Source: Bdellovibrionales bacterium (GTDB lineage: Bacteria > Bdellovibrionota_G > JALEGL01 > JAGRMV01). From it: 63,473 nt of DNA. Both the position numbers and the translations under genes were made by a program. A model generated the notes under the pieces. It made no database searches. It worked only from the letters and a program-made list of their open reading frames with translations, and was not told the origin of the DNA. The stretch spans positions 1-63,473 of the forward strand of contig JAGRAX010000002.1 of the NCBI GenBank assembly GCA_020434365.1. Reading direction: 5' to 3'. This document shows positions 6,942 to 45,786 of the stretch, in pieces (the stretch's first letter is position 1; each line of letters begins with the position of its first letter).

Positions 6942-7010
6942 TACGTCGCATGGCTTTTTATGCGAATGAAACATTGAATTTTTATATTGATGTAGTAGCC
7001 TTCAAAACCT

Positions 7011-7451: not shown

Positions 7452-7481
7452 GAAATTTCGAAGGCCTTGTTCTTTTGGATC

Positions 7482-8846: not shown

Positions 8847-8881
8847 ACCCCTAAACTCCTATAAAATTTTTATAAAGTTTC

Positions 8882-10270: not shown

Positions 10271-10606
10271 AGTCTGGATTCCTTAGCTCAAAATCCTTGT
10301 TAGGTCTAGAGCTACCGCTGAAACATAGGGCTCCGTCCCCATTTTTGAATCAGAGTCCCTCATTTTGAAGAAATCAAAAATGTAACTTTAGTTTACACTA
10401 GAAACTTTTTTTTCTTTTTTGATTGTTTTTTTCCATCAGTCTAGTACTCTGTAAGTATGTCGAGGTTTTTAATCAAAATCCTTCCTCTCCAAAAACAACT
10501 CAGCTCATTCTCCAAAAAAAATCTCGACTCGCAACGCTTAATTTGATGCATTGCATTTACAACTGCGTTGCGTTACATTAACAAGAGCAGGAGGTACAAC
10601 ATCAAA

Positions 10607-11203: not shown

Positions 11204-12336
11204 ACAAAGCATGTGTAAGCCTTTTGACCTTTTCCTTGCTTTACTCAGCACAAACACACGCATTTTCAACCATTCCTTGGAAAGGTGTACCCGCTCGCAT
11301 TCCTGACTCTACTGACATCGCGGTAGAAGTTGATGATCGTTACGGTCAGTACTTTCCCAACTCGGGCTGCGACGAAGCTGGCGATTGCAAGACACCTTTT
11401 ATGGCCATAAAAAATGCCATCTCTACCTGGCAATCTGTTTCTGGAATCAAGCTTGCATTTACTTCGATCAAGTCCAAAAGAATCAACAATCGCATTGCTT
11501 TTGATGGCGTCAATCAAATCAAAATGATTCACTCCAACTGGGGCTCTCAGCCTGGTAGTCCTCCTTCTTCTGCCTTGGCTGTCACCATTTCAACCTACGA
11601 GGATCCACAAGACATTGTAGACTTTGATATTATCGTCAATGCGGACAATCAAAGATGGGCCGACATCAACGATCACAGAGAGTACAATTTCCATGATTTT
11701 CAGAGCGTGCTCACACACGAAATTGGTCATGGTTTGGGTCTCGATCACTCATCTACAAACTCTAGAGAAGGTCTAGAAGAACTCCGAGACGCCACGATGT
11801 TTTTTGCTGCAGGCATGGGAGAAACGCACCAAAGAAGTCTTGGACAAGACGACATCCATGGCATTCGCCATCTCTATACTTCCACAAATTTTTCTACACC
11901 CAGTATCACTTTGGTGACTCCTGATCGATTGGACGCCACCATGCAAAGCCGAAGCATTGTAGAAATTCAAGGCAGTGACTTCACCGCGACCACCGCTGTA
12001 TACATCCTACAAAATCAATCCGCGCCCGATGTAGTGGGAAGAGTGATCAATGTCGAAAGTGATAAAATCGATGTGGCCTTTGACTTAAGTTATCTTCCGA
12101 CTGGAACCTATTCTGTCCTCGTTGCCAACTCTTACAATCGTTTTACAAAAGTCAAAGACGTTTTGGAAATCAACAACCCCAATGGCATCACTCTTTCTAA
12201 CGCAAATTATGGAAGGCTCGCTCAGACTTCAGCTTGCAAATCTAATGGTGCTCCTAACGTAAGTTTACTTTGTGCCTTTCTATGTGCTCTTTGGATTTTG
12301 TCCCGAAGAAAAAAATTTGTTATGATTTCCTCCTAA
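11200..12336 (+). CDS. secreted matrixin-like (M10) zinc metalloprotease with a C-terminal beta-sandwich domain and a Cys/TM/Arg-rich sorting tail
   Basis: 378 aa. Signal peptide MNKACVSLLTFSLLYSAQTHA. HEIGHGLGLDHS (nt 11716..11751) equals the metzincin/matrixin consensus HExxHxxGxxHS, and a Met-turn candidate (DATMFF) follows. The protein ends in SACKSNGAPNVSLLCAFLCALWILSRRKKF. Confidence 0.8.
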   Translation: MNKACVSLLTFSLLYSAQTHAFSTIPWKGVPARIPDSTDIAVEVDDRYGQYFPNSGCDEAGDCKTPFMAIKNAISTWQSVSGIKLAFTSIKSKRINNRIAFDGVNQIKMIHSNWGSQPGSPPSSALAVTISTYEDPQDIVDFDIIVNADNQRWADINDHREYNFHDFQSVLTHEIGHGLGLDHSSTNSREGLEELRDATMFFAAGMGETHQRSLGQDDIHGIRHLYTSTNFSTPSITLVTPDRLDATMQSRSIVEIQGSDFTATTAVYILQNQSAPDVVGRVINVESDKIDVAFDLSYLPTGTYSVLVANSYNRFTKVKDVLEINNPNGITLSNANYGRLAQTSACKSNGAPNVSLLCAFLCALWILSRRKKFVMISS

Positions 12337-32303: not shown

Positions 32304-32359
32304 CCCCCTTTCGCTGCGTATGGATCATCATGCGACGGCGATGAATCAAGGAAACCCTC

Positions 32360-32734
32360 ATGAAAAAAAAGATCTTAATTGTGGATGATGAAGAACGGAT
32401 TGTGGTCATTCTCCAAGCCAGATTGGAGTCTAAGGGCTACACGACACTTAAAGCGGGAAACGGCCACGAAGCTTTGGAGCTGATCCAAAAAGAAAAACCG
32501 GATTTGATCTTGTTGGACGTGCGCATGCCCAAAATGGACGGATATACCTTTCTCAACAGTCTCAAGCAGATCCCAAATGCTGACGATATTCCCATCATAG
32601 TATGTACGGCCCAAGGAAAAGTGGAAGATCTATTTGTTCAAAGGGATGTCGTCGACTTTGTCACCAAGCCCTTTGATACCCAGTCTCTGCTTGAAAAAAT
32701 CAAAAACACCATCGGCGAAGCGCCTTTGGTATAG
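32360..32734 (+). CDS. single-domain response regulator (CheY-like receiver)
   Basis: 124 aa. KILIVDDEE, the phospho-acceptor context DLILLDVRMPKMDG, CTAQG, and the conserved Lys in VTKPF. Confidence 0.9.
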   Translation: MKKKILIVDDEERIVVILQARLESKGYTTLKAGNGHEALELIQKEKPDLILLDVRMPKMDGYTFLNSLKQIPNADDIPIIVCTAQGKVEDLFVQRDVVDFVTKPFDTQSLLEKIKNTIGEAPLV

Positions 32735-32776
32735 GATATGCGTATGGGATAAAAAATTGTCCCAAAGAAAAAAACC

Positions 32777-33919
32777 CTAAGATGCCAGAACCTGCCCAGC
32801 AATGACTTCTCTTTGGATTTCGCTCGTACCCTCTCCGATTTGGCAGAGTTTAACGTCTCGATAAAAGCGCTCAACGGGATATTCTTTTACGTAGCCGTAG
32901 CCCCCATGAATTTGAATGGCCTGATTGCATGCCCTCCAAGCTGCCTCTGATGCATAGAGTTTCGCCATGGAGCTTTCGGCTTTTGCATACATACCCTGAT
33001 CGTGCATCCAAGCTGCGCGGTACACGAGCATTCTCGCAGCTTCCAGCTCGGTCACACTATCTGCAATTTTCCATTGAATGGCTTGAAGCGCGGAGATGGG
33101 TTTTCCAAAGGCTTTTCTTTCTAAAGCATATTTCATGGCTTCATCTATCGCTGCCTGCCCCAAACCCAAAGCCAAGGCGCCAATCACCACTCGGCCTTTA
33201 TCTAGAATTTTTAGAGCGTCCGTAAATCCCTGACCGGGTTCCCCCAACACATTCTCTTCAGGAATTTCCAAATTTTCAAACGTAATCGATGTGGTATCAC
33301 TGGCTCTCATGCCCATCTTGTTTTCTTTTTTGCCCACGACCAAACCTGGCCAGCCTTTTTCGGCCACAAATGCTGTAATGCCTTTGTTGCCTTTGGAAGG
33401 ATCGGTTTTGGCCATGATCACATACACATCTCCAAAAGTACCATGCGTAATAAAATTTTTGCTCCCGTTGATAACCCACGAGCTTCCTTTTTTCTCAGCT
33501 ATTGTAGACATGGATCCAGCATCGGAGCCCGAGCCTGGCTCGGTCAAACACCAAGCAGCCAAACGTTCTCCACTGGCAAGAGAAGGCAGATATTTATTTT
33601 TGATTTCTTCACTCCCTGAGAGCAAGATATGTCCAGAGCCCAGTCCATTATGCGCTTGCACAGAAAGCGCCATGGAACCATCTACTTTGGCAATTTCTTC
33701 GACCGCAATAGCATAACTGGTTACATCCATGCCCGCTCCGCCGTAGCTTTCCGGAAGCATGATGCCCATCAGCCCCAACTCGCCGCATTTTCGGCAAAGC
33801 TCCAAGGGAAATTCCATCGATTCATCTCTCTCCATAGCTCCTGGCGCGACTTCGTTTTGGGCAAAGTCTCGAACCATTTCTCTGAGCATGTTTTGATCTT
33901 CGCTATGCTCTATCTTCAT
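32777..33919 (-). CDS. acyl-CoA dehydrogenase
   Basis: 380 aa. [14 protein letters not shown], and the C-terminal [15 protein letters not shown] that carries the catalytic Glu region. Confidence 0.9.
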
Positions 33920-33922
33920 TGC

Positions 33923-34339
33923 TTATCCTGCTTCCTTGGTTGAACGGATGTTTTCACGCACCCATGATGTAATCTCTTTGAGCGTTGCGCCCGGTGTGAA
34001 AATTTTGGCTACGCCTTCTTTTTCTAGTTTTGGAATGTCCTCATCGGGAATGATCCCCCCTCCAAAAACCTGAATGTCCTGCGCCCCTTTTTCTTTAAGG
34101 AGTTTGATCACTTCCGGAAACAAATACATATGCGCCCCCGACAGAACCGACAGACTGACCGCATCTACGTCTTCGTCCACAGCTGCGCTCACGATCATTT
34201 TGGGCGTTTGATGAAGGCCCGTATAGACCACCTCAAAACCAGCATCGCGAAGCGCTCGAGCGACCACCTTGGCTCCCCGATCGTGACCATCCAGACCAGG
34301 CTTGGCCACCAAAATTCTCAATGTTTTTTCACTTGCCAT
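33923..34339 (-). CDS. icmB: B12-binding small subunit of a split acyl-CoA mutase (isobutyryl-CoA mutase-type, by partner)
   Basis: 138 aa. [34 protein letters not shown] contains the DxHxxG base-off/His-on cobalamin motif. It lies immediately downstream of the catalytic subunit. Confidence 0.75.
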
Positions 34340-34348
34340 ACTGCGCTC

Positions 34349-36019
34349 CTATAACCATTTTGGATCCACATATTCACCAAAAGCATCTCGAAACACATCA
34401 CAGATCTCCCCCAAAGAAGCATAAGACTCTACGGCCTCCAAAATATAGGGCATGAGATTGTCCGGTCCTCGCGCAGCTTGCTCGAGCTTTTGCAGACTCT
34501 TTTGCACTTTGCCAGCGTCTCTCTTTGCTTTTGCTCGACGCACATTTTCGATCTGAATTTTTTCAACCTCTTCATCAACCGTCAATGTCTCGATTGGAGT
34601 CTCGTTTTCTTCAATATATTCATTGATGCCCACGATGATTTTTTCTCGGGTCTCCAGCTGCTTTTGATAGAGATAGGCAGCATTTCCGATTTCTTTTTGA
34701 GGATAGCCTTTTTCAATGGCCTCAATGATGCCTCCCATCTGATCGATGTTTTCAATATACGTCAAAGCCTGCGCTTCCATCTCATCAGTCAGAGACTCCA
34801 CAAAATAGCTTCCCCCAAAAGGATCTGCAGTCGCCGCCACACCTGATTCCTGCGCAATGATCTGCTGCGTGCGAAGCGCAATGCGAACCGTCTCCTCAGT
34901 GGGCAAGGCCAGGGTCTCATCCAGAGAATTGGTATGCAAAGACTGCGTCCCCCCAAGTACAGCCGCCAAGGCTTGCACTGCAGTCCTCACAACATTGTTG
35001 TAGGGCTGCTGCGCCGTGAGCGAACATCCGGCCGTCTGCGTATGAAAACGACACATCATGCTCTTGGGGTTTTTTGCGCCAAAACGCTCTTTCATAATGC
35101 GGGCCCAAATTCTTCGGGCGGCGCGATACTTGGCAATCTCTTCAAAAAAATCATTGTGCGCATTAAAGAAAAAAGACAAGCGCGGCGCAAAGTCATCGAC
35201 ATCCATTCCCGCCTCAATCCCCGCCTCCACATAGCCAATTCCATCAGCCAAAGTAAAGGCCAGCTCCTGCACAGCCGTCGAACCTGCCTCTCGAATGTGA
35301 TAGCCGGAAATCGAGATGGTATTCCACCTGGGTACATGATCTTTGGCAAAAGACATCATATCTGTAATGAGCCTCATGGAGGGTTTGGGCGGATAAATCC
35401 ATGATTTTTGGGCAATGTACTCTTTTAATATGTCGTTCTGTGTGGTTCCACCGATTCGGTCCCAAGACACGCCCTGCTTTTTGGCCACTGCCAAATACAT
35501 CGAAAACAAAATCGTCGCTGGCGCGTTGATGGTCATCGAAGTCGTGACTTGATCCAAGGGAATGCCTTGAAAGAGCGTTTCCATATCCTCGAGCGTATCG
35601 ATCGAAACCCCTGTTTTTCCCACTTCACCCCGGGAGCGATCATGATCCGAATCGTAGCCCATAATCGTCGGCATATGAAAAGCTACCGACAAACCCGTTT
35701 GACCCTGACTGAGAAGGTAATGATAGCGAGCATTTGAGTCTTTGGCCGTCCCAAAGCCCGCAAACTGTCTCATGGTCCAGAGCTTTCCCCGATACATCGT
35801 GGGATGAATCCCTCGCGTATAGGGATACTCTCCGGGGTTTCCCAAATCTCTCTCATAATCGAGGCCAGAAACATCTAAAGGTGTATAAAGCCGGCGAATC
35901 TCATGATTGGAAATCGTGGAAAAATGCTCCTGCCTCTCAGGTCTTTTCTCTAGGGTGGGTTTGAGCGTCTCTTCTTCCCACTGCGCAAGCTGACGCTCTA
36001 GATCTTTCACATCCGCCAT
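34349..36019 (-). CDS. icmA: acyl-CoA mutase large (catalytic) subunit, probably isobutyryl-CoA mutase
   Basis: 556 aa. The TIM-barrel mutase motifs are [65 protein letters not shown] and [20 protein letters not shown]. The positions matching Tyr89 and Arg207 of Propionibacterium methylmalonyl-CoA mutase (RQYAGF and FMVRNTY) are Phe (RQFAGF) and Gln (YIAQKSW) here. Confidence 0.7.
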
Positions 36020-36022
36020 GGC

Positions 36023-37174
36023 CTATCCCTGGATTTCTTTAAGGCTTTGGCTCGCAATCACAAGGCGCTGAATCTCGCTGGTCCCCTCGTAGATTTCACA
36101 AATTCGGGCATCGCGAACAAAGCGCTCAACATCATATTCTTTGGTATAGCCGTAGCCTCCATGAATTTGCAGAGCAGTATTGGTCACAAAAGAGGCTGTC
36201 TCAGATGCAAACAGTTTGGCAATGGCAGAGTATTTTGTAAAACGTCCGCCCAAGGATTTTTTGTAGGCAGCTTGGTAAATCAAGAGGCGAGAGGCCTCAA
36301 TCCGACTGGCCATGTCCGCAATCATCCAACGAATGCCTTGGAACTCTGCAAGGCTTTGATCAAACTGCTTTCTCTCTTTGGCATAGGACAGCGCCGATTC
36401 ATAGGCAGCCTGCGCGATTCCCAAGGCCTGCGCCGCAATTCCAATACGGCCATTGTCTAAGGTAGCCATCGCCACCTTAAAACCAAAACCTTCTTCCCGA
36501 AGCCGCTGAGACTCCGGAACTTTCACATCTGTAAAACTAATGGTGCAGGTACTGGAGGCGCGAATGCCGAGCTTGTTTTCCTTGGCTCCGATCTCAACGC
36601 CTTCGGATTTGGCATCTAGGACAAAAGCTGTAATGCCTCGATTGCCTTGGGTGGGATCTGTCATCGCAAACAAAATCAGCGTATCGGCGTCTGGACCATT
36701 GGTGATCCAGTTTTTGGCGCCGTTGATGACATAGTGATCACCTTCTTTTTTGGCGCTGGTCTTCATCGTCGCTGCATCAGAACCTGACATCGGCTCGGTG
36801 AGGCAATAGGCTCCCAGGGTTTCACCTTTGGCCATGGAAATTAGAAATTTTTGTTTTTGCTCCTCGGTTCCGAAATTCTTGAGAACCTCACAGGCCAAAG
36901 AGTTGTTGACCGACATCGTTACCGCCGTCGAGGCGCAGACCCGGGAGATCTCCTCCATGATCACCACATAGGCAACAGGATCGAGCTCACTCCCACCATA
37001 ACTTTCAGGGATTGAAATCCCCATAAAACCCAGCTCCCCGAGCTTTTTGACAGCTTCCTGAGGAAAGGTTCCGCTTAAATCGATCTGCCGCGCAATCGGG
37101 CGAAGTTCTTTTTCTGCAAAGTCACGAGCCAAAGTTTGAAGAGAACGGTGTTCATCTGTAAGAGCAAAATCCAT
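36023..37174 (-). CDS. acyl-CoA dehydrogenase (short/branched-chain type)
   Basis: 383 aa. CLTEPMSGSDAATMKT, and the C-terminal [17 protein letters not shown]. Confidence 0.9.
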   Translation of the reverse strand: MDFALTDEHRSLQTLARDFAEKELRPIARQIDLSGTFPQEAVKKLGELGFMGISIPESYGGSELDPVAYVVIMEEISRVCASTAVTMSVNNSLACEVLKNFGTEEQKQKFLISMAKGETLGAYCLTEPMSGSDAATMKTSAKKEGDHYVINGAKNWITNGPDADTLILFAMTDPTQGNRGITAFVLDAKSEGVEIGAKENKLGIRASSTCTISFTDVKVPESQRLREEGFGFKVAMATLDNGRIGIAAQALGIAQAAYESALSYAKERKQFDQSLAEFQGIRWMIADMASRIEASRLLIYQAAYKKSLGGRFTKYSAIAKLFASETASFVTNTALQIHGGYGYTKEYDVERFVRDARICEIYEGTSEIQRLVIASQSLKEIQG

Positions 37175-37277
37175 AGGCCGCCGAGTTTTTCACAAAAGCC
37201 CCCAGGACTCAAGAAACTAATCATACGCGATGTGTTAAGAAGCCCTCCGCCATGATACTTAAAGTGTTCTTACAAAC

Positions 37278-40200
37278 CTACGAGCTGGGCTTGAAAATCT
37301 GTATGGTTGATTCTTCTTCATTCGCACCAAACCATTTCCAACTGATTTCTTCTTCAACTTTCGAAAAGAATTCTTGTCTCGTAAATACTTTTCCAAACCA
37401 TGCAGAATCAATAAACAAGTCATTGTCAGGGTCGTACACCACAGTATGAGGAATTTCTGTTCCATCGCCTCCAATAAAAATTACAACTTTGATCTCCGTC
37501 TTAACGCCCTTCGAAGAGAAAAACGCTTGAAGACCCAAGGACTGTTCATGACATAAAGCTGCTTTTTCAATCAAGACTTCAGCAAAGTGTGGTTTGGATA
37601 AACCTGCTTCGACATTTAGTGAAGCAATTTCACGCCTCAAATGAGATCTGTGGTTTGTTAGACCGATGATATAATCACCCTCGGGTCTGGATCTTTGTCT
37701 TATAAAGTCTATGGCCTTCTGGTAAAAGCGCTGCTGGTAACCCTGAACCCTAATGGCAGGAATCGATATATGCGACATTTCATGAATAAACTGCTTTAGA
37801 TATGGCGAATACACATTATGATCATACCCAAAGAAATTATCAACAACACTTTGGTATCCCTGAACTTCTAGTTCGATGTTTGAAATGGGCCGTGAAAAAT
37901 TGTTAAGACTTCTAGCACCTTCATATGAAAACTCTTGAAGAGCTCCAGGGTGATTACTAAAATACCTTTGATACGACTGAATCGCGGTACTACTTTCGGA
38001 TGTAAAAAACTGGGTTTCTTCTGGCCCTACTCGAATATTTGTAACGTCCGACTGATGGAACTCAATATCTTCAAGACTATCATTGATAGGTTTGTAGATA
38101 GAGAATTCTGATTCATTATTGTAGTGAAGAAAATCTCTCCATCTTCTATTGTTTCTCCACGTTGCAAAATCTGTCACGACTCGAGAGTAGTTAGAATCTA
38201 TCATTAAGCCTGATGCCGGATGAAAAAAAATCGCATGAATTTCTCCCACACCCAGAGTTCCAAGCCGTACTTTTGATTCCAGCCCATATCTTGCCGCAGT
38301 AAAATGCAAGAATGTAGAAAGCTCCAAACATGCCGCATCTTTATGAGAAAGTACTTCCGCCCAGTGCGCGACGCCATCCAAAGAATCAGGATATCCCACA
38401 CCATTGAAACCATAATCAGCAGTCCCAATATTTGACCGTGGTGATTCATACTTTTGCGCAAAAGCCATCATTTTCTCAAAAAAATCTTTCAGCTTGTTTG
38501 GCTGATCCAACTCAGCCATCACTTTAGCTCTGCCTCCTATGTATTGATCAAACGCATTGGACAATCTGATAAGATCATCTCCCATAATACCTGCTCGATA
38601 ATTATCTGTAAGAGCTCTCATGGCCCCTCCCCTGGGATCATAAAACACCTCTTGGGAGATTCCACTTCGCTCTGCTCTACGTATTCTAATGGTATTGTGA
38701 TCAATACTTTCTTCAGCAACACCACCACGCAACTGATCAAACTCAGTTTTTCTAGAATCAATCAAGATCCCTTCCTCATCAAAATAGCTTTGATAACGTT
38801 CAATTTCATCCACAAATTGTTTTTTTTGATCGAGAGAAAAAGTTTTTCCATTGACATGATATTTTCCACCTCCGATCGAGAGGTCGTCAAAATACATCAA
38901 TATATTTTCCATGCGATCAATCTGAGCCTTCCATCCAGCGCCCCCATTTTGACTTCTTGCAAAAGCCACAAAATAATCCAAACCGTTCCATGGATGATTC
39001 ATTAAAAAATCTTGTGCCAAAATCCTATTCATATAACCCGATCTTATGATGTCTCCTGCGTTCCAACCAAAATTCATGTTACCCAACACACCTAGGTCCG
39101 CTAAGACCTTGATTTGAGTTTCAATCGAATCATTAGATATCGAAAGATTATTTCGCCTTGCATAGGATTTGCAATAATCAATGAACGTGTTGATGGCTTC
39201 TCTTTTTTCTCGACTTACAGAGTTTGACAAGCCAAAAGTTGTAGCAACATTGGAAGAAGCATCGTTGCCCGTCATATGAACATAATATGCAGCACCCATG
39301 AGCTCTCTTTCAGCTTGAGTTGACGGTGAACTTGAGAGGATACCCATCGTCTGCATAAAACCATCCCAAGCGCTTTGCTGTCCACTGAGTTCATCCAGGT
39401 TTGTAAAATAGCTAAGCACTTCACCATTGGGTTCCATGTTATATGAACGAGCGTTTTGAGATAAATTTCTGACACGATCATCTACAGCGCGCAAAGATCT
39501 AATTTTATATTCAAATGTATCCTTAATTCTAGATACGATCGAACTCTCCACCCCTCTGCGATTTAGAATAGATATCAAGTCATCAAAAGCTTTGGCGGCT
39601 TCTTCTTCTTTACCTTGATCTAAAAGAATTCTAACTTGACGTAGTTTTTCCAATCCTTCTGTCTCACGAGAAAGAACAACCAAGAATTCTGTGAATTCGA
39701 ATTTGGAATAGGATCTAAATACGCTATGTTTTCTCAAAGCAATAAACAATTCTCTTTCTTGAGCAATAAAACCCGAGAAATCATCTAAAGATGAATACAA
39801 ATTCTTCTCTCCCAGAACCAACATCGTTCTTGCATAAGCAGCTAGATCTATAATTGCAGCAAGCCCAGCAACAATAGCACCTATTTCCAATCGATCAATA
39901 TCATCGGCATAGCGAAGCATGAGATTGATATGATGATAAAATTCACGACTCGTAGCCTGAGTTCGATATTGATTCATAGAAATACCAGAGCCCGTCGAAT
40001 TGTTATGAAATGTTTCAGACTTCATTGTAGCCAAAGAAAAAAGAGTCGAGGCTTCATACAAAGACATCACAAAACCTATTTTGGAAATCGCTGACAAAGA
40101 AACACCGTAAAAAGCAACTCCAGGTGCCAAAACAGCTCCGATACCTGTAGCTACAGCTGCCCCCATGGTAGCATATCCAGCATATATAAACGCCTTCTCA

Positions 40201-42221
40201 ATATTTTTACTTCTCTCTTCCTCGGCCTCTCTTAGTTCTTCGATATGACTGACCAAGCTTCGAAGTACAATAGAATATGAAGAATTTTCCGAAAGCGCCG
40301 CCCCAATAGCAGAAGGATAATCTCCAACCAACTCAAAGCCACTTTCATAGTATTCTTTGTTGGATTCGGCCTTCATTTGCAAATAAGTTTCAAATTCAAA
40401 TTTTTCCTCTTTGATCTGTTCAACAAGTACATTTTTGTCGGTGGGGCTTGTATTAAAAAAAGATCTTGGAGCATATCGAGCATCCAGAAGAGGTTTATTG
40501 TCTCTAACATCTTGGGTAAAAAGTTTATACCCGAGCCAAAAAAGTTTCTTTGTTGGATATTTTGACCACTGAAGGGTGGAGAGTTTTCTGCATCTTTCTG
40601 GGGCATTTTCTTTAAATTCATCTTTGGCAATTTGAACCACTATATCCAATCGATTTTTATCGATGCTCAATCCCGCTCTCGACATAAAACTCGGGTTCAA
40701 ATATTTTCCGTTTTCTTTGGCTTTTCCTTCTGCAACTTCTTCGGCAGAGTAAATCTTTCCAAACCACTGATAAAACACTTTTGTATTGGTGATCAGGGCT
40801 ATACTAGGATGCCTAAAAATAACATGTAAGATTCTTTCGTATTCACTGGACCAATACTTTCGTAAAGTTGGATCATTGGCATAATATCGAAGATTTTTTT
40901 TCGTATGATCAAAGTCTGTCATTAAAAATCTAATGATCTTAAAATCAGTCTTTGCTTGTTCACCAAGAGAGCTTTGATCCACGGCATGAAAGACTCGATG
41001 TAAGTCCACAGCTTCAGAGCGAGTCGCTCCCTCACCCAAGAGTCGTTGAAGCTCTTCAACCCCTTTTTTATCTTTGCTCCAGCTATTTTGAATCTCTCTC
41101 AAATGTGACCGTGCTACTGAAATTCCCTGAAGAACTCTTTTGTTTCCTACATTCCAGGCATAATCAAAAGCGACTCCATCCACTTTTCTTTTCTTTAAAA
41201 AGGTTTGACTCACAATACAAGACTGAGGATCCACAGAACCTTCTCCATATCTTCCATTATAATAAACCATGGATTGAGCCATTTGAATTCTTGCAAGCTC
41301 TACTGCATTACCAAGAAGTAGTAGTGTTGAGAGATCAAATTTCTTTGAATCATTTGCTGTATTGTATTTTACATCAAGGGGTTGTGTACCAGGTGTCATT
41401 ACTGGAACAATTACATGCTCATCAGTTGCCTCGATCCATGACATAAAAACTTTCATAGATCGAACATCATCGAAATACTGCAGGCCAAAACTTTCGTAGC
41501 TATTGATACCTGCCCCTACAGATCTAATGATCTGCTTTAGATATTCACTCAGATCATCTGTTTTATAATAAACGTCATTGAGCATATAACTTGTAACAAA
41601 CGATTGTGCTCTCCGGATTTTTTGAGAAAGAACAAAAAAACCCTGATCCTTGCCGACTTTTTCTGCTGATGTAGAATTGTAATAAGACCATAAAAAGAGT
41701 GTTGCCTCGTGAATCACCTGAGCAATGTTTTGCACATTTGAATAGCGCAATTTACCGAAAGACAGGTAATCTAGTGCATCAATATACAACAACAGTTTTG
41801 CCTGCTGTTCCTTTGAGACTCCAGGTCCACCTTCATCGCTGGCCAATTGAAACATTTGATATCTTCGAGCTCGATTGAGCAAGAGATCATTGAGCCCAAG
41901 CAGAGCTTGCTGAGTCTGTTCAGGCCCTTTTCTTGCTTCAAGAAGACGGGCATCTTTTACCAATTGCTTGTGAATCGCAAAAGGGTTTGAACTGCTTAAA
42001 GCATAGGCATTGATAAGCTCACAACTGACCTCAGTCTTGCTTGCGGTACTCGCAGCTCCACTTTCAAAAGTAAGAAAAAGGGTTTTCTGGCTTTGTCTCG
42101 CACAAATCTTTAGATCTTCCTTCGACAATACTCCTTGACTCGCATAGGCAGACATCGAAAAGAGACAAACCAATAGCAGTGTTAACAATATGGTACTTCT
42201 TAGCGTAACTTGAGTGATCAA
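37278..42221 (-). CDS. giant secreted protein of unknown family with central hydrophobic hairpins and C-terminal tandem Cys-His-Asp modules plus HExxH
   Basis: 1,647-aa uninterrupted ORF. TTG start with a G-rich SD (ccggggggaatt TTG). Signal peptide MITQVTLRSTILLTLLLVCLFSMSAYA|SQG. Hydrophobic blocks at aa 677-733 and 779-804. Duplicated C/H/D modules around C1298 and C1557. HEMSH at aa 1480-1484. Confidence 0.8.
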   Translation of the reverse strand: MITQVTLRSTILLTLLLVCLFSMSAYASQGVLSKEDLKICARQSQKTLFLTFESGAASTASKTEVSCELINAYALSSSNPFAIHKQLVKDARLLEARKGPEQTQQALLGLNDLLLNRARRYQMFQLASDEGGPGVSKEQQAKLLLYIDALDYLSFGKLRYSNVQNIAQVIHEATLFLWSYYNSTSAEKVGKDQGFFVLSQKIRRAQSFVTSYMLNDVYYKTDDLSEYLKQIIRSVGAGINSYESFGLQYFDDVRSMKVFMSWIEATDEHVIVPVMTPGTQPLDVKYNTANDSKKFDLSTLLLLGNAVELARIQMAQSMVYYNGRYGEGSVDPQSCIVSQTFLKKRKVDGVAFDYAWNVGNKRVLQGISVARSHLREIQNSWSKDKKGVEELQRLLGEGATRSEAVDLHRVFHAVDQSSLGEQAKTDFKIIRFLMTDFDHTKKNLRYYANDPTLRKYWSSEYERILHVIFRHPSIALITNTKVFYQWFGKIYSAEEVAEGKAKENGKYLNPSFMSRAGLSIDKNRLDIVVQIAKDEFKENAPERCRKLSTLQWSKYPTKKLFWLGYKLFTQDVRDNKPLLDARYAPRSFFNTSPTDKNVLVEQIKEEKFEFETYLQMKAESNKEYYESGFELVGDYPSAIGAALSENSSYSIVLRSLVSHIEELREAEEERSKNIEKAFIYAGYATMGAAVATGIGAVLAPGVAFYGVSLSAISKIGFVMSLYEASTLFSLATMKSETFHNNSTGSGISMNQYRTQATSREFYHHINLMLRYADDIDRLEIGAIVAGLAAIIDLAAYARTMLVLGEKNLYSSLDDFSGFIAQERELFIALRKHSVFRSYSKFEFTEFLVVLSRETEGLEKLRQVRILLDQGKEEEAAKAFDDLISILNRRGVESSIVSRIKDTFEYKIRSLRAVDDRVRNLSQNARSYNMEPNGEVLSYFTNLDELSGQQSAWDGFMQTMGILSSSPSTQAERELMGAAYYVHMTGNDASSNVATTFGLSNSVSREKREAINTFIDYCKSYARRNNLSISNDSIETQIKVLADLGVLGNMNFGWNAGDIIRSGYMNRILAQDFLMNHPWNGLDYFVAFARSQNGGAGWKAQIDRMENILMYFDDLSIGGGKYHVNGKTFSLDQKKQFVDEIERYQSYFDEEGILIDSRKTEFDQLRGGVAEESIDHNTIRIRRAERSGISQEVFYDPRGGAMRALTDNYRAGIMGDDLIRLSNAFDQYIGGRAKVMAELDQPNKLKDFFEKMMAFAQKYESPRSNIGTADYGFNGVGYPDSLDGVAHWAEVLSHKDAACLELSTFLHFTAARYGLESKVRLGTLGVGEIHAIFFHPASGLMIDSNYSRVVTDFATWRNNRRWRDFLHYNNESEFSIYKPINDSLEDIEFHQSDVTNIRVGPEETQFFTSESSTAIQSYQRYFSNHPGALQEFSYEGARSLNNFSRPISNIELEVQGYQSVVDNFFGYDHNVYSPYLKQFIHEMSHISIPAIRVQGYQQRFYQKAIDFIRQRSRPEGDYIIGLTNHRSHLRREIASLNVEAGLSKPHFAEVLIEKAALCHEQSLGLQAFFSSKGVKTEIKVVIFIGGDGTEIPHTVVYDPDNDLFIDSAWFGKVFTRQEFFSKVEEEISWKWFGANEEESTIQIFKPSS

Positions 42222-42541
42222 AATTCCCCCCGGAATAAATACTGCGTCGCAGTGTACAACAATTTCTTTACAAAATCAACATCCACCCCTGAAGGTAAAG
42301 CAATTTTTGTTCCAAAAAAATATGTAAAAAAAAACATGTAGTTACATTTTGGATGTGCTTATATTTTGCTCAATTAAAAAGCTGTGAATATGGATTCGTG
42401 ACCTGAAGGTCTAGAGGGTATCACCATTCATTGTAGATGTTAACATTGATATCCGAAAACATGCCAAATTAAGCCCCAAAAATGCGACGTAATCACCCCA
42501 AACAGAAGGCTCAAAGCCCTCAAAACCCCTCAAATTGGGGA

Positions 42542-42571
42542 TTGACAGTTGGAATGCTTTTTGCTTATAAT
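42542..42571 (+). promoter_or_regulatory. near-consensus sigma70-type promoter for the 42614 gene
   Basis: TTGACA (42542..42547), an 18-nt spacer, then TATAAT (42566..42571). It lies ~43 nt upstream of the ATG, and GGAGGG sits at 42601. Confidence 0.5.
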
Positions 42572-42613
42572 GACGCAGTTGTAACACTTAGAATTTCCGA
42601 GGAGGGAAATGTC

Positions 42614-43237
42614 ATGAAAAAATTTTTAGCATTATCAACAATTGGAGTTTTAGCTGCTTTGATATCTACGCAAAGTGGATTTGCTCAGGAAGATCTCGGC
42701 AAATATAAAGTTTTGGAGATCATGGTTGTAGATGGAGATAACCCAGGAGAAGTCATAGAAGACGCTGGTATAAGGCTACGATCCACCTTCACTCAAGAAA
42801 CAGAAACAGGAGAAGACGGTGTTGCTTCTTTGGTGGTACCTGTTGGAGTCCAAGGAAAATTAAGTATATCAGCTATTGGGTACCAAGCAAGAGAGATTAA
42901 AGTCCGTGACATTACAAACATCGGCAAAAAGATAGCTGTTGTATATCTGTATTCAAACGGTGGAGATAGAGTTGAAACCTATGATTTTAAGTTTAGAGTA
43001 GTCAATTTAAATGTCTCAGATAGTCCTTTAAAAGGTGCTATGGCTTTGTTTATTGGAACGTCTACAGGAGATTTTACGGATGAGAACGGCTTGGTAAGTG
43101 TGGCTCTGTCTTCAAAAGAAGCAAAAGGCAAAAGCATCAAAATTGCTTTGGAAGGTTATGAAACCGCTTCCTTTAAGCTTACACCATCCATGAGAAACGG
43201 TGTGACAGATGTATATTTGACACCTGTATCTAAATAA
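42614..43237 (+). CDS. small secreted protein with two carboxypeptidase-regulatory-like beta-sandwich repeats
   Basis: Start moved to the ATG at 42614 (MKKFLALSTIGVLAALISTQSGFAQ) with GGAGGG 7 nt upstream. Two similar units are present: GEDGVASLVVPVGVQGKLSISAIGYQAREIKV and DENGLVSVALSSKEAKGKSIKIALEGYETASFKL. Confidence 0.6.
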   Translation: MKKFLALSTIGVLAALISTQSGFAQEDLGKYKVLEIMVVDGDNPGEVIEDAGIRLRSTFTQETETGEDGVASLVVPVGVQGKLSISAIGYQAREIKVRDITNIGKKIAVVYLYSNGGDRVETYDFKFRVVNLNVSDSPLKGAMALFIGTSTGDFTDENGLVSVALSSKEAKGKSIKIALEGYETASFKLTPSMRNGVTDVYLTPVSK

Positions 43238-43280
43238 ACCAATTGGGTCCAAATTAAAAATACTTTTGGATCTAAAATTA

Positions 43281-43328
43281 AAAGCCGACATGTAACTTTG
43301 CCAGTTCAAGTCGGCTTTTGCATTTTTT
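43281..43328. terminator. rho-independent (bidirectional) terminator
   Basis: aaagccgac (43281..43289) pairs with gtcggcttt (43310..43318), followed by ttgcatttttt. It lies between convergent genes. Confidence 0.6.
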
Positions 43329-43385
43329 GTTTCGTTCGTTGGAAATACTAGGTTTGTTTTTTAAGTAATTTTAAGCTCAATTCGC

Positions 43386-43754
43386 CTAGCGGCAGCGAAA
43401 AGACACGAGCGTTGTGTATTGAGAGTCTTCGGTTGCGATGGCGCTGGCGTTTTCGGCGTCGCCTACGCCGAAGATTGTACCGATTTGGCCTACTTTTCTT
43501 ACGGTTTTGGCGGCCTCTTCTGTAAGACTGCCGGAGTATGTTGTTTCTGAATTCAGGAGCATATAGGCTTTGTTTTGGCGCGCGCAGTGTTTGGCGGCGA
43601 GCGCCTCTGATTTTTGTTTGGAGGCTTGCTCATCGCTGTGCACATATTGCAATCGATAGCTTCCATCTTCTTGCAAAGACACAGGATACTTTTTTCCCGC
43701 ACAGGAAACAGCACATAAGAACACGAGCGTATACAATCCAAATCTTTTGATCAT
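43386..43754 (-). CDS. hypothetical lipoprotein
   Basis: From the internal ATG at 43754 the N-terminus reads MIKRFGLYTLVFLCAVSCAGKK (lipobox AVS|C). The ORF track starts 9 codons upstream at 43781. No family recognised. Confidence 0.55.
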   Translation of the reverse strand: MIKRFGLYTLVFLCAVSCAGKKYPVSLQEDGSYRLQYVHSDEQASKQKSEALAAKHCARQNKAYMLLNSETTYSGSLTEEAAKTVRKVGQIGTIFGVGDAENASAIATEDSQYTTLVSFRCR

Positions 43755-43807
43755 GTATGTATTTTTATATGGATCTGTCATGTATGAAAAGCTTTCTTAC
43801 CATAAAA

Positions 43808-45022
43808 CTACGCCAAGATTTCTTCCTGAATGCAGCGGTACTGCGCTCCGTCCCATAAAAATTCTGCCGGACGAGAGCGTAAATTGTAATGACTGCTCAT
43901 GGAATATCCATAGGCCCCCACATGCATCATCGCCAATATGTCTCCCTGCATGCATACTGTAAATGTAATATTTTTGGCAAAGGTATCTGTGCTTTCACAT
44001 ACGGGTCCCACCAAATCCATAGTTTCATGGTTTTTGCTTTCACCTAGATATTCCAAATGAACAGGGGCTTCATACAACGCGGGTCTCATATAATCATTCA
44101 TCCCTGCATCCACAATCACAAAGGTTTTGTGCGAGGTTTGTTTGCGATACAGAACTTGCGTCAGTAGGATTCCTGCATTGCCAAAAATAGAGCGGCCCGG
44201 TTCTACAAAGATTTTTATATTTTTTCCATGACTTTCATCTACAATTTTTTTCATATGCATTTCAATTGCATGAATGTGCTCTTCAATGCTTTGCTCTCTA
44301 AGACCGATGCCTCCGCCGACATTCAAAAACTCCACTATCATAGATTGTTTGCGCAGTTGATCGATCAGTGTAAAAGCTTGGTCAAGAGCTTGATCATAAG
44401 GATCCTGCGTAAAAATCTGAGATCCCAAATGAAAGTGAATCCCCACTGCTTGAATCCATGGATCCTGATGAGATCTCTTATAGAGATCTTCCACTTGAAG
44501 ATGATCCATCCCAAATTTATTCTCAAACATTCCGGTTGAAATTTTTGGATGCGTGTTCGCATCTACGTTGGGATTTAAACGAAAGCTCAAGCGAACTCTT
44601 TTTTGTTTTTCTTTGCAAAGGTTTTGGATGAGCTCAAACTCTGCTTGGCTCTCTACATTGATCGCTGCAAGACCCGCATCGATGGCGCGCTCCAACTCTG
44701 AGCGCCTTTTGCCCACGCCAGAAAACACAATTTTTTGTCCTGGAACGCCACAATCTAGTGCACGCTGAGCCTCTGCCCAGGATACCACATCCACACCAGC
44801 TCCATGAGCTGCCAGAATTTTCAAAAGTTCGGGATTTGAATTTGCCTTGATTGCCACGCAAACTCTACCTTGATTTTCAGAAAGGTGTTTTTGATAGGCC
44901 AAAAAATTATGTTCTACAATAGACTTGGCGTAGATGTACGCAGGTGTTTCATGCTGCCGCGCAAATTCTTTGAGCTTTTCTTTGCCTCCAAAAAAAGAAA
45001 GCAGATCTTTTATTTTTTCCAC
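43808..45022 (-). CDS. lysA: diaminopimelate decarboxylase
   Basis: PLP-Lys context VCVAIKANSNPELLKILAAHGAG, plus GGGIG, EPGRSIFGNAG and CESTD. The longest ORF (to 45115) would overlap the upstream crotonase by 106 nt. I therefore place the start at the GTG at 45022 (VEKIKDLLSFF...), which leaves a 13-nt overlap. The start is uncertain. Confidence 0.8.
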   Translation of the reverse strand: MEKIKDLLSFFGGKEKLKEFARQHETPAYIYAKSIVEHNFLAYQKHLSENQGRVCVAIKANSNPELLKILAAHGAGVDVVSWAEAQRALDCGVPGQKIVFSGVGKRRSELERAIDAGLAAINVESQAEFELIQNLCKEKQKRVRLSFRLNPNVDANTHPKISTGMFENKFGMDHLQVEDLYKRSHQDPWIQAVGIHFHLGSQIFTQDPYDQALDQAFTLIDQLRKQSMIVEFLNVGGGIGLREQSIEEHIHAIEMHMKKIVDESHGKNIKIFVEPGRSIFGNAGILLTQVLYRKQTSHKTFVIVDAGMNDYMRPALYEAPVHLEYLGESKNHETMDLVGPVCESTDTFAKNITFTVCMQGDILAMMHVGAYGYSMSSHYNLRSRPAEFLWDGAQYRCIQEEILA

Positions 45023-45786
45023 GTGGCAGGTCTTTTTTCTAGAAAGGCTTTCATTCCTTCGGCCTGATCGGGATGCGCAAAACACAGCGCAAAATTTTGC
45101 TGCTCTATTGCGCAAGCTGTGCGCAAGTCAAGGCCCTGACCCTGGGTCATGGATTTTTTGATGCCTTCAATGGCAACTCTGCTTTTTGAGGAGATCGAGT
45201 TTGCAATCGACTCAACTTTTTCAATGAGCTCAGCGGCTGGAAAAACATCGTTGCACAAACCCAAAGTCAAAGCCTGTTGAGCATCAATCATCTCTCCAGT
45301 CAAACACAGCTCCAAGGCTTTGGCTTGACCGATTCTACGAGGAAGTCTCTGCGTCCCTCCAAAACCTGGGATCACGCCCAAAGCAATTTCAGGCTGACCG
45401 AACTTGGCCTTTTCACTGGCGTAGATGAGATCACAAGCCATAGCGAGCTCACAGCCCCCTCCCAAAGCAAAACCTTGAACCATCGCAATAAAAATTTTTC
45501 CACTTGCCTGCATCATGTTGGCAATGCGATGTCCAAGCGCAGAAAAATTGCTGGCTTCCAGAGGCGTAAAATTTTGCATCGTCGAAATGTCTGCACCTGC
45601 AACAAAAGCCTTTTCTCCAGCGCCTGTAATCACAGCCACCTCGAGCTCAGTGGAATGAACCACCTCGCTGATGTGTTTTCTCAAACCCAAAAGTACGTCC
45701 TTATTGATGGCGTTGAGCGCCTCGGGTCGATTGATTGTGATCCAGGCTACGCGGCCTTTGATCTCCATCTGTACGCATTCGCTCAT
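45010..45786 (-). CDS. enoyl-CoA hydratase (crotonase family)
   Basis: 258 aa. ITGAGEKAFVAGADI, GGGCELAMACD and the C-terminal EGMKAFLEKR. Confidence 0.9.
   Translation of the reverse strand: MSECVQMEIKGRVAWITINRPEALNAINKDVLLGLRKHISEVVHSTELEVAVITGAGEKAFVAGADISTMQNFTPLEASNFSALGHRIANMMQASGKIFIAMVQGFALGGGCELAMACDLIYASEKAKFGQPEIALGVIPGFGGTQRLPRRIGQAKALELCLTGEMIDAQQALTLGLCNDVFPAAELIEKVESIANSISSKSRVAIEGIKKSMTQGQGLDLRTACAIEQQNFALCFAHPDQAEGMKAFLEKRPATWKK

What the first reader, a model, noticed from the sequence alone, without database searches (positions are those of the whole stretch)
37281..38375. Internal duplication at the C-terminus of the giant protein: two Cys-His-Asp (transglutaminase/papain-like) modules flanking an HExxH motif
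Two ~100-aa segments align with each other residue by residue:
- Module 1 (aa ~1283-1378): HWAEVLSHKDAACLELSTFLHFTAARYGLESKVRLGTLGVGEIHAIFFHPASGLMIDSNY...EFSIYKP
- Module 2 (aa ~1545-1645): HFAEVLIEKAALCHEQSLGLQAFFSSKGVKTEIKVVIFIGGDGTEIPHTVVYDPDNDLFIDSAW...STIQIFKP

Both modules keep a Cys (C1298 and C1557), a His 31-35 residues later (H1329 and H1592), and an Asp 13 residues after that (D1342 and D1605). This order and spacing, with Cys at the start of a helix followed by a Gly-containing loop and a strand-embedded His, is that of the transglutaminase-like/papain-fold Cys-His-Asp triad. LapG-type bacterial transglutaminase-like cysteine proteases and PNGase are examples.

Between the modules lies KQFIHEMSHISIP (HEMSH, nt 37770..37784), which has the hydrophobic context of a zincin HExxH site. 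By rough residue-frequency reasoning an HExxH is expected by chance only about once per twenty proteins of this size. It is therefore suggestive, not proof.

Tandem cysteine-protease/deamidase-like modules plus a possible metalloprotease site would make this a multi-warhead effector.
Basis: seen in the sequence. Interest (0 to 1): 0.65.

Follow-up and report, generated by a model that had tools for sequence, protein, structure and literature searches.

The report
Tandem cysteine-protease-like modules, orphan protein
The tail of a 1,647-residue secreted or membrane protein from an uncultured wastewater bacterium holds a real, ancient tandem duplication that is probably two very divergent transglutaminase-like Cys-His-Asp enzyme modules, while the HExxH "metalloprotease" motif between them looks like chance.

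Summary
Residues 1286-1379 and 1545-1645 of the 1647-aa ORF (37278..42221, minus strand) are a true internal duplication: 30% identity, Smith-Waterman 89 against 32±5 for shuffles.

Pfam, NCBIfam, PDB sequences and 1.84 billion representative proteins give nothing; the C-terminal half is a complete orphan. Profile-profile comparison, however, places the Cys helix on the catalytic Cys helix of transglutaminase-like peptidases. The best match is the lasso-peptide B2 type (PF13471): P 1e-4, probability 57%, beaten by 0 of 1000 shuffles and 0 of 1200 real windows. His and Asp fall in register. NlpC/P60 and Tox-PL1 controls are negative. AlphaFold models were poor (pLDDT 35 and 55) and Foldseek found nothing, so the fold is unproven.

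HExxH is expected by chance in 5-14% of such proteins and nothing else supports it.

New context: the protein belongs to a small lineage-specific family. Members share an N-terminal domain and a Gly-rich hydrophobic hairpin, and carry unrelated C-termini. One relative has a papain-fold toxin-like C-terminus. This layout resembles polymorphic toxins.

The parts
37278..42221 (-). Giant ORF, 1647 aa plus stop. TTG start at 42221; the database model starts at the TTG at 42188 and gives 1636 aa.
   Evidence: reproduced without differences in contigs of three studies' metagenomes
42141..42221 (-). Predicted Sec signal peptide (aa 1-27, ...SAYA|SQG)
   Evidence: read from the sequence; hydropathy peak at aa 5-23; the cleavage site is inferred
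39732..40379 (-). Family-conserved 'hairpin module' (aa 615-830). It comprises a YPSA motif, two Gly/Ala-rich hydrophobic lobes (aa ~680-733), a third hydrophobic helix (aa 778-801), and a K-N-x-x-S-L-D-D boundary.
   Evidence: hydropathy; four-way alignment with G001, G008 and G003 relatives; hhalign P 0.013; profile search
38082..38501 (-).
38328..38330 (-). Cys1298 codon (TGT), candidate nucleophile of unit 1
   Evidence: aligned to the catalytic Cys of PF13471, PF01841 and PF06035 alignments
38235..38237 (-). His1329 codon, candidate general base of unit 1
38196..38198 (-). Asp1342 codon, candidate third triad member of unit 1
37734..38081 (-). Inter-unit linker (aa 1381-1496), no recognisable family
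37770..37784 (-). HEMSH (aa 1480-1484), the only HExxH in the protein; judged a probable chance motif
37281..37733 (-). Repeat unit 2 (aa 1497-1647), runs to the C-terminus
37551..37553 (-). Cys1557 codon, candidate nucleophile of unit 2
37446..37448 (-). His1592 codon; first residue of the most confident beta-hairpin in the AF2 model
37407..37409 (-). Asp1605 codon; end of the second strand of that hairpin

Best explanation
The last ~400 residues are two ancient tandem copies of a ~140-aa domain. This domain is a very divergent member of the transglutaminase-like branch of the papain fold. A Cys lies on a helix, and a His and an Asp lie on the two strands of a following beta-hairpin. The closest sequence pattern is that of lasso-peptide B2 leader peptidases (Transglut_core3). 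Both copies keep all three residues, so both are probably active thiol enzymes: protease, deamidase or transglutaminase. The chemistry cannot be told apart from sequence.

The modules form the species-specific C-terminal payload of a lineage-specific protein family found in uncultured, reportedly Bdellovibrio-like bacteria. Family members share a Sec signal, an N-terminal domain and a Gly-rich hydrophobic hairpin module that ends in K-N-x-x-S-L-D-D. After that boundary the C-termini are unrelated between species. One relative has a papain-fold-toxin-like (Tox-PL1) C-terminus, one has an HExxH, and one has nothing. By analogy with polymorphic toxins, the conserved half would export and anchor the protein and perhaps insert it into a membrane, and the variable tail would act on a target protein. 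The HExxH between the modules is most likely not a zinc site.

Shown: the duplication, the residue alignment, the profile-level similarity, orphan status, and family membership with variable tails. Inferred: fold, catalysis, export route, target.
For: Duplication: BLASTP E 2e-9; SW 89 against 32±5 for shuffles. There are 39 invariant columns, many of them polar (H, E, K, C, E, S, H, D, S), at only 28% identity.

Transglutaminase-like signal, two-module profile A1:
- Against 12 PF13471-type sequences: hhalign score 31.4, P 1.1e-4, probability 57%.
- Against a 15-sequence version: 28.9. This was exceeded by 0 of 1000 column shuffles (maximum 23.7) and by 0 of 1200 real 150-aa windows from the same genome (maximum 24.3).
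- Each module alone hits the same register: 24.5 (0 of 1200 windows reach it) and 18.6 (7 of 1200). The two modules are the best-scoring windows along the whole giant protein.
- Against PF01841: 21.8, P 0.007, 7 of 400 shuffles reach 20.5. Cys, His and Asp all fall on the catalytic columns when the alignment is extended.
- Against LapG (PF06035): P 0.086, with Cys and His in register.
- Negative controls: NlpC/P60 P 0.12; Tox-PL1 P 0.55.

Spacing: Cys-to-His is 31 and 35 in the modules, against 33-37 (B2), 33-36 (LapG) and 34-49 (PF01841). His-to-Asp is 13, against 12 in the CLxRSL B2 subgroup and 15-17 in PF01841 and LapG. The B2 domain is a Cys-His-Asp protease (PMC11420955).

AF2 with the two-row alignment (pTM 0.52) puts His98 and Asp111 on adjacent strands of its most confident element (pLDDT 75), after a long helix that bears the Cys.

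Family context:
- The same-genus genome has, in the same slot between the acyl-CoA dehydrogenase and lysA, an 808-aa protein. It matches the giant's N-terminus (E 2e-4 and 8e-5) and its pre-hairpin and hairpin region, but lacks the tail.
- Relatives of 1083 aa and at least 1229 aa share the hairpin module (E 6e-18 and 2e-7). Their C-termini show no similarity to each other or to the giant.
- The G003 tail matches PF15644 'papain fold toxin 1' at E 0.0023 and carries its GH-x-FNA...D-x-Q motif.
Against: No curated model sees the modules. Pfam and NCBIfam give nothing even at E 10. PF01841, PF13471 and PF06035 genome scans do not touch this ORF. My own HMMs of these families do not rank the ORF in the genome.

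The hhalign signal is a 24-49-column local match and depends on the template. A deep but narrow B2 subfamily gives only 19.6, P 0.021.

AF2 confidence is low and Foldseek against the PDB finds nothing (best E 0.5, TM at most 0.31).

In the model the Cys lies mid-helix. No Gly or Pro precedes it, unlike in all three reference families.

No homologue exists, so conservation of Cys, His and Asp rests on two paralogous copies only.

No immunity-like gene follows the ORF; the acyl-CoA dehydrogenase starts 103 nt downstream. No secretion-system genes are adjacent.

If the three hydrophobic segments are ordinary transmembrane helices, the tail would be cytoplasmic in the producer, not delivered.

The giant's link to the family is individually weak (P 0.013; E about 1e-4) and leans on synteny.
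Confidence: 0.45

Rival explanations
1. The modules do have the transglutaminase-like fold, but the protein is an ordinary inner-membrane protein of the producer. The N-terminal domain would be in the periplasm. Three transmembrane helices would place the C-terminal 820 aa in the cytoplasm. There the modules would act in cis or on the cell's own proteins (processing or regulation), not as a delivered effector.
For: A signal peptide plus three hydrophobic segments (aa ~680-704, ~705-733, 778-801) gives an N-out, C-in topology by simple counting. Thiol enzymes prefer the reducing cytoplasm. No immunity gene and no secretion-system genes lie nearby. The neighbours are housekeeping genes. GC content is uniform along the gene, so there is no sign of a recently grafted tail.
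Against: Tails differ completely between close relatives, and one looks like a polymorphic-toxin domain. That is unusual for a housekeeping membrane protein. The hydrophobic lobes are Gly/Ala-rich and only moderately hydrophobic (19-residue Kyte-Doolittle means of 1.7-1.9). The gene is absent or replaced even in the same genus.
Confidence: 0.2
2. The repeat is a duplicated domain of some other, possibly new, fold without thiol catalysis. The conserved Cys, His and Asp would be structural or would bind a ligand or metal. For example, the invariant H-x-x-E ahead of the Cys together with the later His and Asp could form a metal site. The resemblance to transglutaminase-like peptidases would then be a short helix-turn-strand coincidence.
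For: There are no HMM hits. The significant hhalign core is only 24 columns and weakens with another template. Foldseek is negative. The Cys is predicted mid-helix. Other invariant polar residues (H1286/H1545, E1289/E1548, K1294/K1553) have no role in a classic triad.
Against: The match is specific to the catalytic Cys helix in three related families and in both modules independently. It was never reached by 1200 real windows. His and Asp spacing fits. Papain-fold controls outside the transglutaminase branch are negative.
Confidence: 0.25
3. This is the first reader's full picture: a three-warhead effector in which HEMSH (aa 1480-1484) is a working zincin metalloprotease site between two cysteine enzyme modules.
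For: HExxH is present with hydrophobic flanks. A family relative (G008) also has one HExxH (HEYQH at aa 890) in its unrelated tail.
Against: Expected by chance at 5% (composition) to 14% (genome rate). No zincin family or PDB sequence matches the linker, even at E 10. No similarity to the G008 tail (SW 37 against a null of 34.7). The motif lies about 15 residues before the start of repeat unit 2, and the equivalent stretch before unit 1 has no such motif. The 116-aa linker is short for a zincin domain. AF2 gives no confident structure there.
Confidence: 0.06

Closest known systems
Lasso-peptide B2 leader peptidases (Pfam PF13471 Transglut_core3; C-terminal domain of McjB)
   Same: Cys-His-Asp order. 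Cys-to-His spacing is 33-37 against 31 and 35 here. His-to-Asp is 12 against 13. The motif C-L-x-x-S-L-x-L-x5-R-x-G-[IL]-x-[AS]-x-[LIV]-x-[LIV]-G is closely mirrored by CLELSTFLHFTAARYGLESKVRLG. This is the best profile-profile score (P 1e-4).
   Different: It does not reach the Pfam model at all. The H-A-W signature is replaced by H-A-I and H-T-V. No Gly or Pro precedes the Cys. The modules are tandem copies at the end of a 1647-aa protein, not a ~150-aa stand-alone protein. No lasso precursor, cyclase or RRE gene is nearby.
Transglutaminase-core proteins (PF01841, e.g. TgpA-like membrane proteins) and LapG-type BTLCP peptidases (PF06035)
   Same: Catalytic Cys, His and Asp fall in register in extended hhalign alignments. 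The hydrophobic-hydrophobic-D-[SN] ending of the Asp strand resembles LapG's L-V-L-D-N.
   Different: Similarity is weak (P 0.007 and 0.086). The His-Asp hairpin is shorter (13 against 15-17). The modules lack the G-x-C and G-D-C motifs. There is no LapD/LapA-type partner.
Polymorphic toxin systems with papain-fold C-terminal toxins (Tox-PL1 / PF15644 Gln_amidase)
   Same: The N-terminal half is conserved, there is a sharp boundary, and the C-terminal domains are unrelated between close relatives. One relative's tail is Tox-PL1-like.
   Different: No adjacent immunity gene. No known trafficking domain (Rhs, CdiA, WXG, PAAR and so on). The modules themselves are not Tox-PL1 (P 0.55). Only five family members are known, in four genomes.
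Hydrophobic helical hairpins of membrane-inserting proteins (diphtheria toxin T domain, pore-forming colicins, chlamydial Inc bilobed domains). This comparison is from general knowledge and was not tested here.
   Same: Two back-to-back Gly/Ala-rich hydrophobic stretches lie in the middle of an otherwise soluble, exported protein.
   Different: No sequence relation was sought or found. Here a cleavable Sec signal precedes the hairpin, and a third hydrophobic helix follows it.

Membership tests
Transglut_core3 / lasso-peptide B2 peptidase (PF13471) | Scores above the curated Pfam cut-off (26 bits) | tested here: not met
   No hit at E up to 10 for the whole protein or for either module alone. 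The PF13471 genome scan gives no match in the window's own genome. My own HMM of 15 members does not rank the ORF.
Transglut_core3 / lasso-peptide B2 peptidase (PF13471) | Cys, His, Asp in that order with family-typical spacing | tested here: met
   Cys-to-His is 31 and 35 against 33-37. His-to-Asp is 13 against 12 in the CLxRSL subgroup.
Transglut_core3 / lasso-peptide B2 peptidase (PF13471) | Profile-level homology over the domain | tested here: inconclusive
   hhalign probability 57%, P 1.1e-4 over 24 columns. None of 1000 shuffles or 1200 real windows reach it. A narrow 120-sequence subfamily gives only P 0.021.
Transglut_core3 / lasso-peptide B2 peptidase (PF13471) | Encoded in a lasso-peptide cluster (precursor, B1/RRE, cyclase C) | tested here: not met
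   The neighbours are acyl-CoA dehydrogenases, a B12 mutase, lysA and a beta-sandwich protein.
Transglutaminase-like / papain fold in general | Helix bearing the Cys at its N-terminus, packed on an antiparallel sheet bearing His and Asp | tested here: inconclusive
   AF2 gives pLDDT 35 and 54.7 with pTM 0.52. His and Asp lie on adjacent strands, but the Cys is inside a long helix. Foldseek against the PDB finds no match.
Transglut_core (PF01841) | Scores above the Pfam cut-off (23 bits) | tested here: not met
   hhalign gives only P 0.007, with the triad in register.
LapG / BTLCP (PF06035) | Scores above the Pfam cut-off; periplasmic partner system LapD/LapA | tested here: not met
   No PF06035 match in the window's own genome. 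hhalign P 0.086. No LapD/LapA-type genes among the flanking ORFs scanned (28750-37174 and 42482-45786); partner genes elsewhere in the genome were not searched for.
Zincin metalloproteases | HExxH within a recognisable zincin domain with a third zinc ligand | tested here: not met
   The motif is present. No family or PDB match for the linker. Chance expectation is 5-14%.
Polymorphic toxin systems | Conserved N-terminal region with unrelated C-terminal domains among close relatives | tested here: met
   The sample is small: five proteins in four of 17 genomes.
Polymorphic toxin systems | Cognate immunity gene immediately downstream | tested here: not met
   The next gene, 103 nt downstream, is an acyl-CoA dehydrogenase.
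Any thiol enzyme | Cys-dependent catalytic activity | not testable with these tools
   Requires biochemistry.

The most novel reading that the evidence does not exclude
The giant protein is one member of an undescribed polymorphic effector scaffold of a small, uncultured Bdellovibrio-like phylum. A Sec signal, an N-terminal domain and a Gly-rich hydrophobic hairpin (ending at K-N-x-x-S-L-D-D) would carry the protein out, insert into a target or prey membrane, and pass an interchangeable C-terminal warhead across it. Here the warhead would be a new, unrecognised subfamily of transglutaminase-like thiol enzymes present as two active copies.
Probability: 0.18. Interest if true: 0.7.

Novelty: new variant of a known kind. 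Interest (0 to 1): 0.45.

Why it matters
If the reading is right, these modules are a branch of the transglutaminase/papain superfamily so divergent that no curated model detects it and none of 1.84 billion representative proteins resembles it. That would show how much enzyme diversity lies beyond profile searches.

The more useful result may be the carrier. It is a lineage-specific family whose conserved N-terminal half and hydrophobic hairpin bear unrelated tails, one of them toxin-like. That would be a new delivery scaffold in poorly known, possibly predatory bacteria from activated sludge.

If the reading is wrong, this is one more orphan repeat in a metagenome-assembled genome.

Tried and rejected
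- **Family scans.** Pfam and NCBIfam on the whole protein and on each piece gave nothing apart from one sub-threshold FIMAH hit at aa 859-910.
- **PDB sequence searches.** Searches with the tail and with the two-module profile returned only noise at E about 1. The B2 family itself has no solved relative by sequence.
- **Homologue searches.**
  - A word-index search of 5.8 billion proteins with the tail and with aa 28-830 found only the protein itself.
  - An exhaustive phmmer search of aa 831-1647 against 1.84 billion representatives found only the protein itself.
  - Genome-contig and metagenome-contig scans found nothing, and one alignment was too divergent to scan with.
  - The module profile found nothing in the other 16 genomes of the phylum.
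  - There is no paralogue in the window's own genome.
- **Structure.**
  - AF2 on the single sequence gave pLDDT 35.
  - AF2 with the only possible alignment, the two units against each other, gave pLDDT 54.7.
  - Foldseek on that model gave no match.
  - I did not feed lasso-B2 sequences into AlphaFold as pseudo-homologues.
- **Plain HMMER.** Self-built PF13471 and PF01841 HMMs searched against all ORFs of the genome did not rank the giant ORF.
- **Third copy.** A search for a third copy of the module elsewhere in the protein found only a weak His-hairpin-like stretch at aa 463-496, without a Cys.
- **Tail comparisons.** The giant's tail shows no similarity to the tails of the G008 and G003 relatives.
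- **Population variation.** All public contigs are identical, so no selection test was possible. No RNA runs were found.
- **Mosaicism.** GC and GC3 content is uniform along the gene.
Full report
**What is there**

The finding lies at the 3' end of one long minus-strand ORF, 37278..42221, of 1647 aa. The gene is real. Contigs assembled independently from wastewater and activated-sludge metagenomes of three studies (2015, 2018, 2019) cover it piecewise with zero differences. No RNA data sets were found.

**The duplication**

- Residues 1286-1379 and 1545-1645 align at 30% identity over 101 columns, BLASTP E 2e-9.
- The Smith-Waterman score is 89, against 32.3 ± 5.1 (maximum 58) for 1000 shuffles.
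- MAFFT extends the repeat about 45 residues upstream, to F-[FY]-x-K-x3-F. The units are then aa ~1241-1380 and ~1497-1647, separated by a 116-aa linker.
- At 28% identity the two copies share 39 invariant columns, many of them polar. These include one Cys, the His 31 or 35 residues later, and the Asp 13 residues after that.
- The protein has only eight Cys. Of the three in the C-terminal 817 aa, two are these aligned ones.

**The protein is an orphan**

- Pfam and NCBIfam give nothing relevant for the whole protein or the pieces, even at E 10. PDB sequences give nothing.
- The word-index search of 5.8 billion proteins returns only the protein itself, both for the tail and for aa 28-830.
- An exhaustive phmmer search of aa 831-1647 against 1.84 billion representatives also returns only the protein itself.
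- There is no paralogue in the genome.
- The module profile has no match in the other 16 genomes of the (small) phylum.
- No orthologue was found among 60 relatives, including the same genus.

**Fold, by structure prediction: inconclusive**

- AlphaFold2 on the single sequence of aa 1241-1647 gave mean pLDDT 35.
- With the only available alignment (unit 2 with unit 1 as its homologue) it gave pLDDT 54.7 and pTM 0.52.
- The most confident element of that model (pLDDT about 75) is a beta-hairpin with His1592 at the start of the first strand and Asp1605 at the end of the second. It follows a long helix that contains Cys1557.
- This is the order of elements in a transglutaminase-like core. However, the Cys sits inside the helix, not at its N-terminus.
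- Foldseek against the PDB found nothing (best E 0.5, TM at most 0.31).

**Fold, by profile-profile comparison: a modest, specific signal**

I collected true members of candidate families from whole genomes and aligned them:

| Family | Sequences |
|---|---|
| PF01841 | 28 |
| PF13471 | 15, later 12 as A2, plus 120 |
| PF06035 (LapG) | 4 |
| PF00877 (NlpC/P60) | 28 |
| PF15644 (Tox-PL1) | 3 |

I then compared these with the two-module profile A1 using hhalign:

| Template | Score | P | Notes |
|---|---|---|---|
| PF13471 type, 12 sequences | 31.4 | 1.1e-4 | probability 57% |
| PF13471 type, 15 sequences | 28.9 | 2.5e-4 | |
| PF01841 | 21.8 | 0.007 | |
| Narrow 120-sequence B2 subfamily | 19.6 | 0.021 | |
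| LapG | 16.6 | 0.086 | |
| NlpC/P60 | 14.0 | 0.12 | aligns a different segment |
| Tox-PL1 | 10.7 | 0.55 | |

- In every transglutaminase-like case the module Cys falls on the catalytic Cys column.
- In the extended alignments His and Asp also fall on the catalytic His and Asp.
- For the PF13471 template, 1000 column shuffles of A1 reach at most 23.7. 1200 real 150-aa windows from long ORFs of the same genome reach at most 24.3.
- Module 1 alone scores 24.5 and module 2 alone 18.6 (exceeded by 7 of 1200 windows). Both are in the same register.
- Along the giant protein, the windows that contain the two modules are the top scorers.
- For PF01841, 7 of 400 shuffles reach 20.5.
- The pattern is visible by eye. 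CLELSTFLHFTAARYGLESKVRLG compares with CLERSLALWLLLRRQGIDCQIRLG of a B2 protein.
- Spacing agrees:

| Spacing | Modules | B2 | LapG | PF01841 |
|---|---|---|---|---|
| Cys-to-His | 31 and 35 | 33-37 | 33-36 | 34-49 |
| His-to-Asp | 13 | 12 (CLxRSL subgroup) | 16-17 | 15-17 |

- B2 domains are Cys-His-Asp proteases of the transglutaminase-like group (PMC11420955).

Evidence against the fold assignment:

- The significant core is short.
- The signal depends on the template.
- HMMER with the same family alignments does not rank the ORF in its own genome.
- The modules lack the H-A-W signature and the Gly or Pro before the Cys.

I put the transglutaminase-like fold at roughly two in three.

**HExxH**

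- HEMSH (aa 1480-1484) is the only such motif in the protein.
- It is expected in 4.8% of composition-matched shuffles. At the genome-wide rate in long ORFs the expectation is 0.14 per protein of this size.
- The 116-aa linker matches no family or solved protein at E 10.
- The motif lies just before repeat unit 2. The equivalent stretch before unit 1 has none.
- I regard it as chance, with about 6% for a real zinc site.

**Context, which changes the picture of the whole protein**

- The flanking genes are housekeeping: two acyl-CoA dehydrogenases, a split B12 mutase, lysA and a crotonase operon.
- In the same-genus genome G001 these flanks are conserved, but the slot between the dehydrogenase and lysA holds different genes.
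- Among them is an 808-aa protein with these features:
  - Its N-terminus matches the giant's (E 2e-4 and 8e-5, reciprocal).
  - Its pre-hairpin and hairpin region matches aa 624-723 of the giant.
  - It ends about 90 residues after the hydrophobic region.
- That protein has clear relatives: G008 (1083 aa, E 6e-18), G003 (at least 1229 aa, E 2e-7) and a second copy in G001.
- A four-way alignment shows a shared module. It comprises:
  - a Y-Y-P-S-A-A motif;
  - a charged linker;
  - two Gly-rich hydrophobic lobes (L-T-G-[VI]-G);
  - a polar stretch;
  - a third hydrophobic helix;
  - a K-N-x-x-S-L-D-D motif.
- The giant has every element, at aa 615-830.
- Beyond that boundary the proteins have nothing in common:
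  - G003 carries a sub-threshold but motif-perfect papain-fold toxin 1 / Gln-deamidase domain (PF15644, E 0.0023).
  - G008 carries an unrelated tail with one HEYQH.
  - G001 carries almost nothing.
  - The giant carries about 820 residues ending in the two modules.
- A conserved N-terminal half with interchangeable C-termini is the layout of polymorphic toxins.
- Limits of this support:
  - No immunity gene and no secretion-system genes lie nearby.
  - Only five family members are known.
  - Simple topology counting would put the tail in the producer's cytoplasm.

**Organism**

- The assembly is 2.05 Mb, about 92% complete, with 41.7% GC.
- Its phylum has only 17 species genomes in the collection.
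- RpoC is at most 73% identical to anything named, the best matches being 'Deltaproteobacteria' MAGs.
- An earlier, unchecked note calls the lineage Bdellovibrio-like.
- The habitat is activated sludge and wastewater.

**Verdict**

The modules are probably tandem transglutaminase-like thiol-enzyme modules, not proven, and closest in pattern to lasso-peptide B2 peptidases. They are not members of any defined family.
- The HExxH is not supported.
- The effector role is plausible from family architecture but is inferred.
- I file this as a new variant of a known kind, of moderate interest.

Noticed in passing
L190:2959-6645 (+) = G003:C76, ORF of at least 1229 aa cut by the contig end: A family relative of the giant protein. 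Its C-terminus (aa ~950-1080) looks like Pfam PF15644 'papain fold toxin 1, glutamine deamidase' (E 0.0023, below the cut-off). It carries the motifs E-I-N-C-T-G and G-H-M-F-N-A...V-V-Y-Y-D-F-Q, which match true members.
   Followed up: partly
L189:3111-6362 (-) = G008:C15, 1083 aa: Another family relative with a signal peptide, the same hairpin module and an unrelated ~460-aa tail. The tail contains a single HExxH (F-A-H-E-Y-Q-H-F at aa 890). No Pfam match; it was not examined further.
   Followed up: partly
L089 (G001:C3:68001-88000), 5220-11733: The syntenic slot in the same-genus genome holds a different gene set. It includes a DUF6036 nucleotidyltransferase plus an HTH-like gene (a toxin-antitoxin-like pair), a 406-aa protein with a SAM-methyltransferase domain, the 808-aa hairpin protein, and a 261-aa orphan. 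This slot is a variable island between conserved metabolic genes.
   Followed up: partly
window 40734-40835 (aa 463-496 of the giant protein): The stretch HVIFRHPSIALITNTKVFYQWFGKIY resembles the His/Asp hairpin of the C-terminal modules (hhalign P 0.003, uncorrected; no Cys upstream; Asn in place of Asp). Its second half (V-F-x-x-W-F-G-K-I) recurs in the N-terminal domain of the second G001 family member. It could be a degenerate third copy or just a family motif.
   Followed up: partly
window 42186-42221: Two in-frame TTG starts. The public gene model (1636 aa) uses the one at 42188. The one at 42221 follows a G-rich Shine-Dalgarno-like run and gives a better signal peptide, with an Arg in the n-region.
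   Followed up: no
proteins P0003-P0122: The 120 best 'lasso peptide biosynthesis B2' hits form a narrow subfamily (T-P-W-x-S-x-C-L-x-Q-A...A-H-A-W-L-R-C-G). Position His+12 is an invariant Gly, not Asp, so it may work with a Cys-His dyad or use another acid.
   Followed up: no
G000:C154:7608-7817 (+) and G000:C147:3893-4084 (-): These are the only transglutaminase-core-like stretches in the genome, both below the Pfam cut-off (22.5 and 19.7 bits). The TgpA-like protein found in most other genomes of the order and phylum was not detected in any of the six genomes of this family.
   Followed up: no
window 37100-42400: Contigs from activated-sludge and wastewater metagenomes of three separate studies (2015-2019) match this stretch with no substitutions; the only difference is a 1-nt deletion at 42326, in the intergenic region upstream of the gene, in one X4 contig. 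This suggests a widespread, nearly clonal population.
   Followed up: yes
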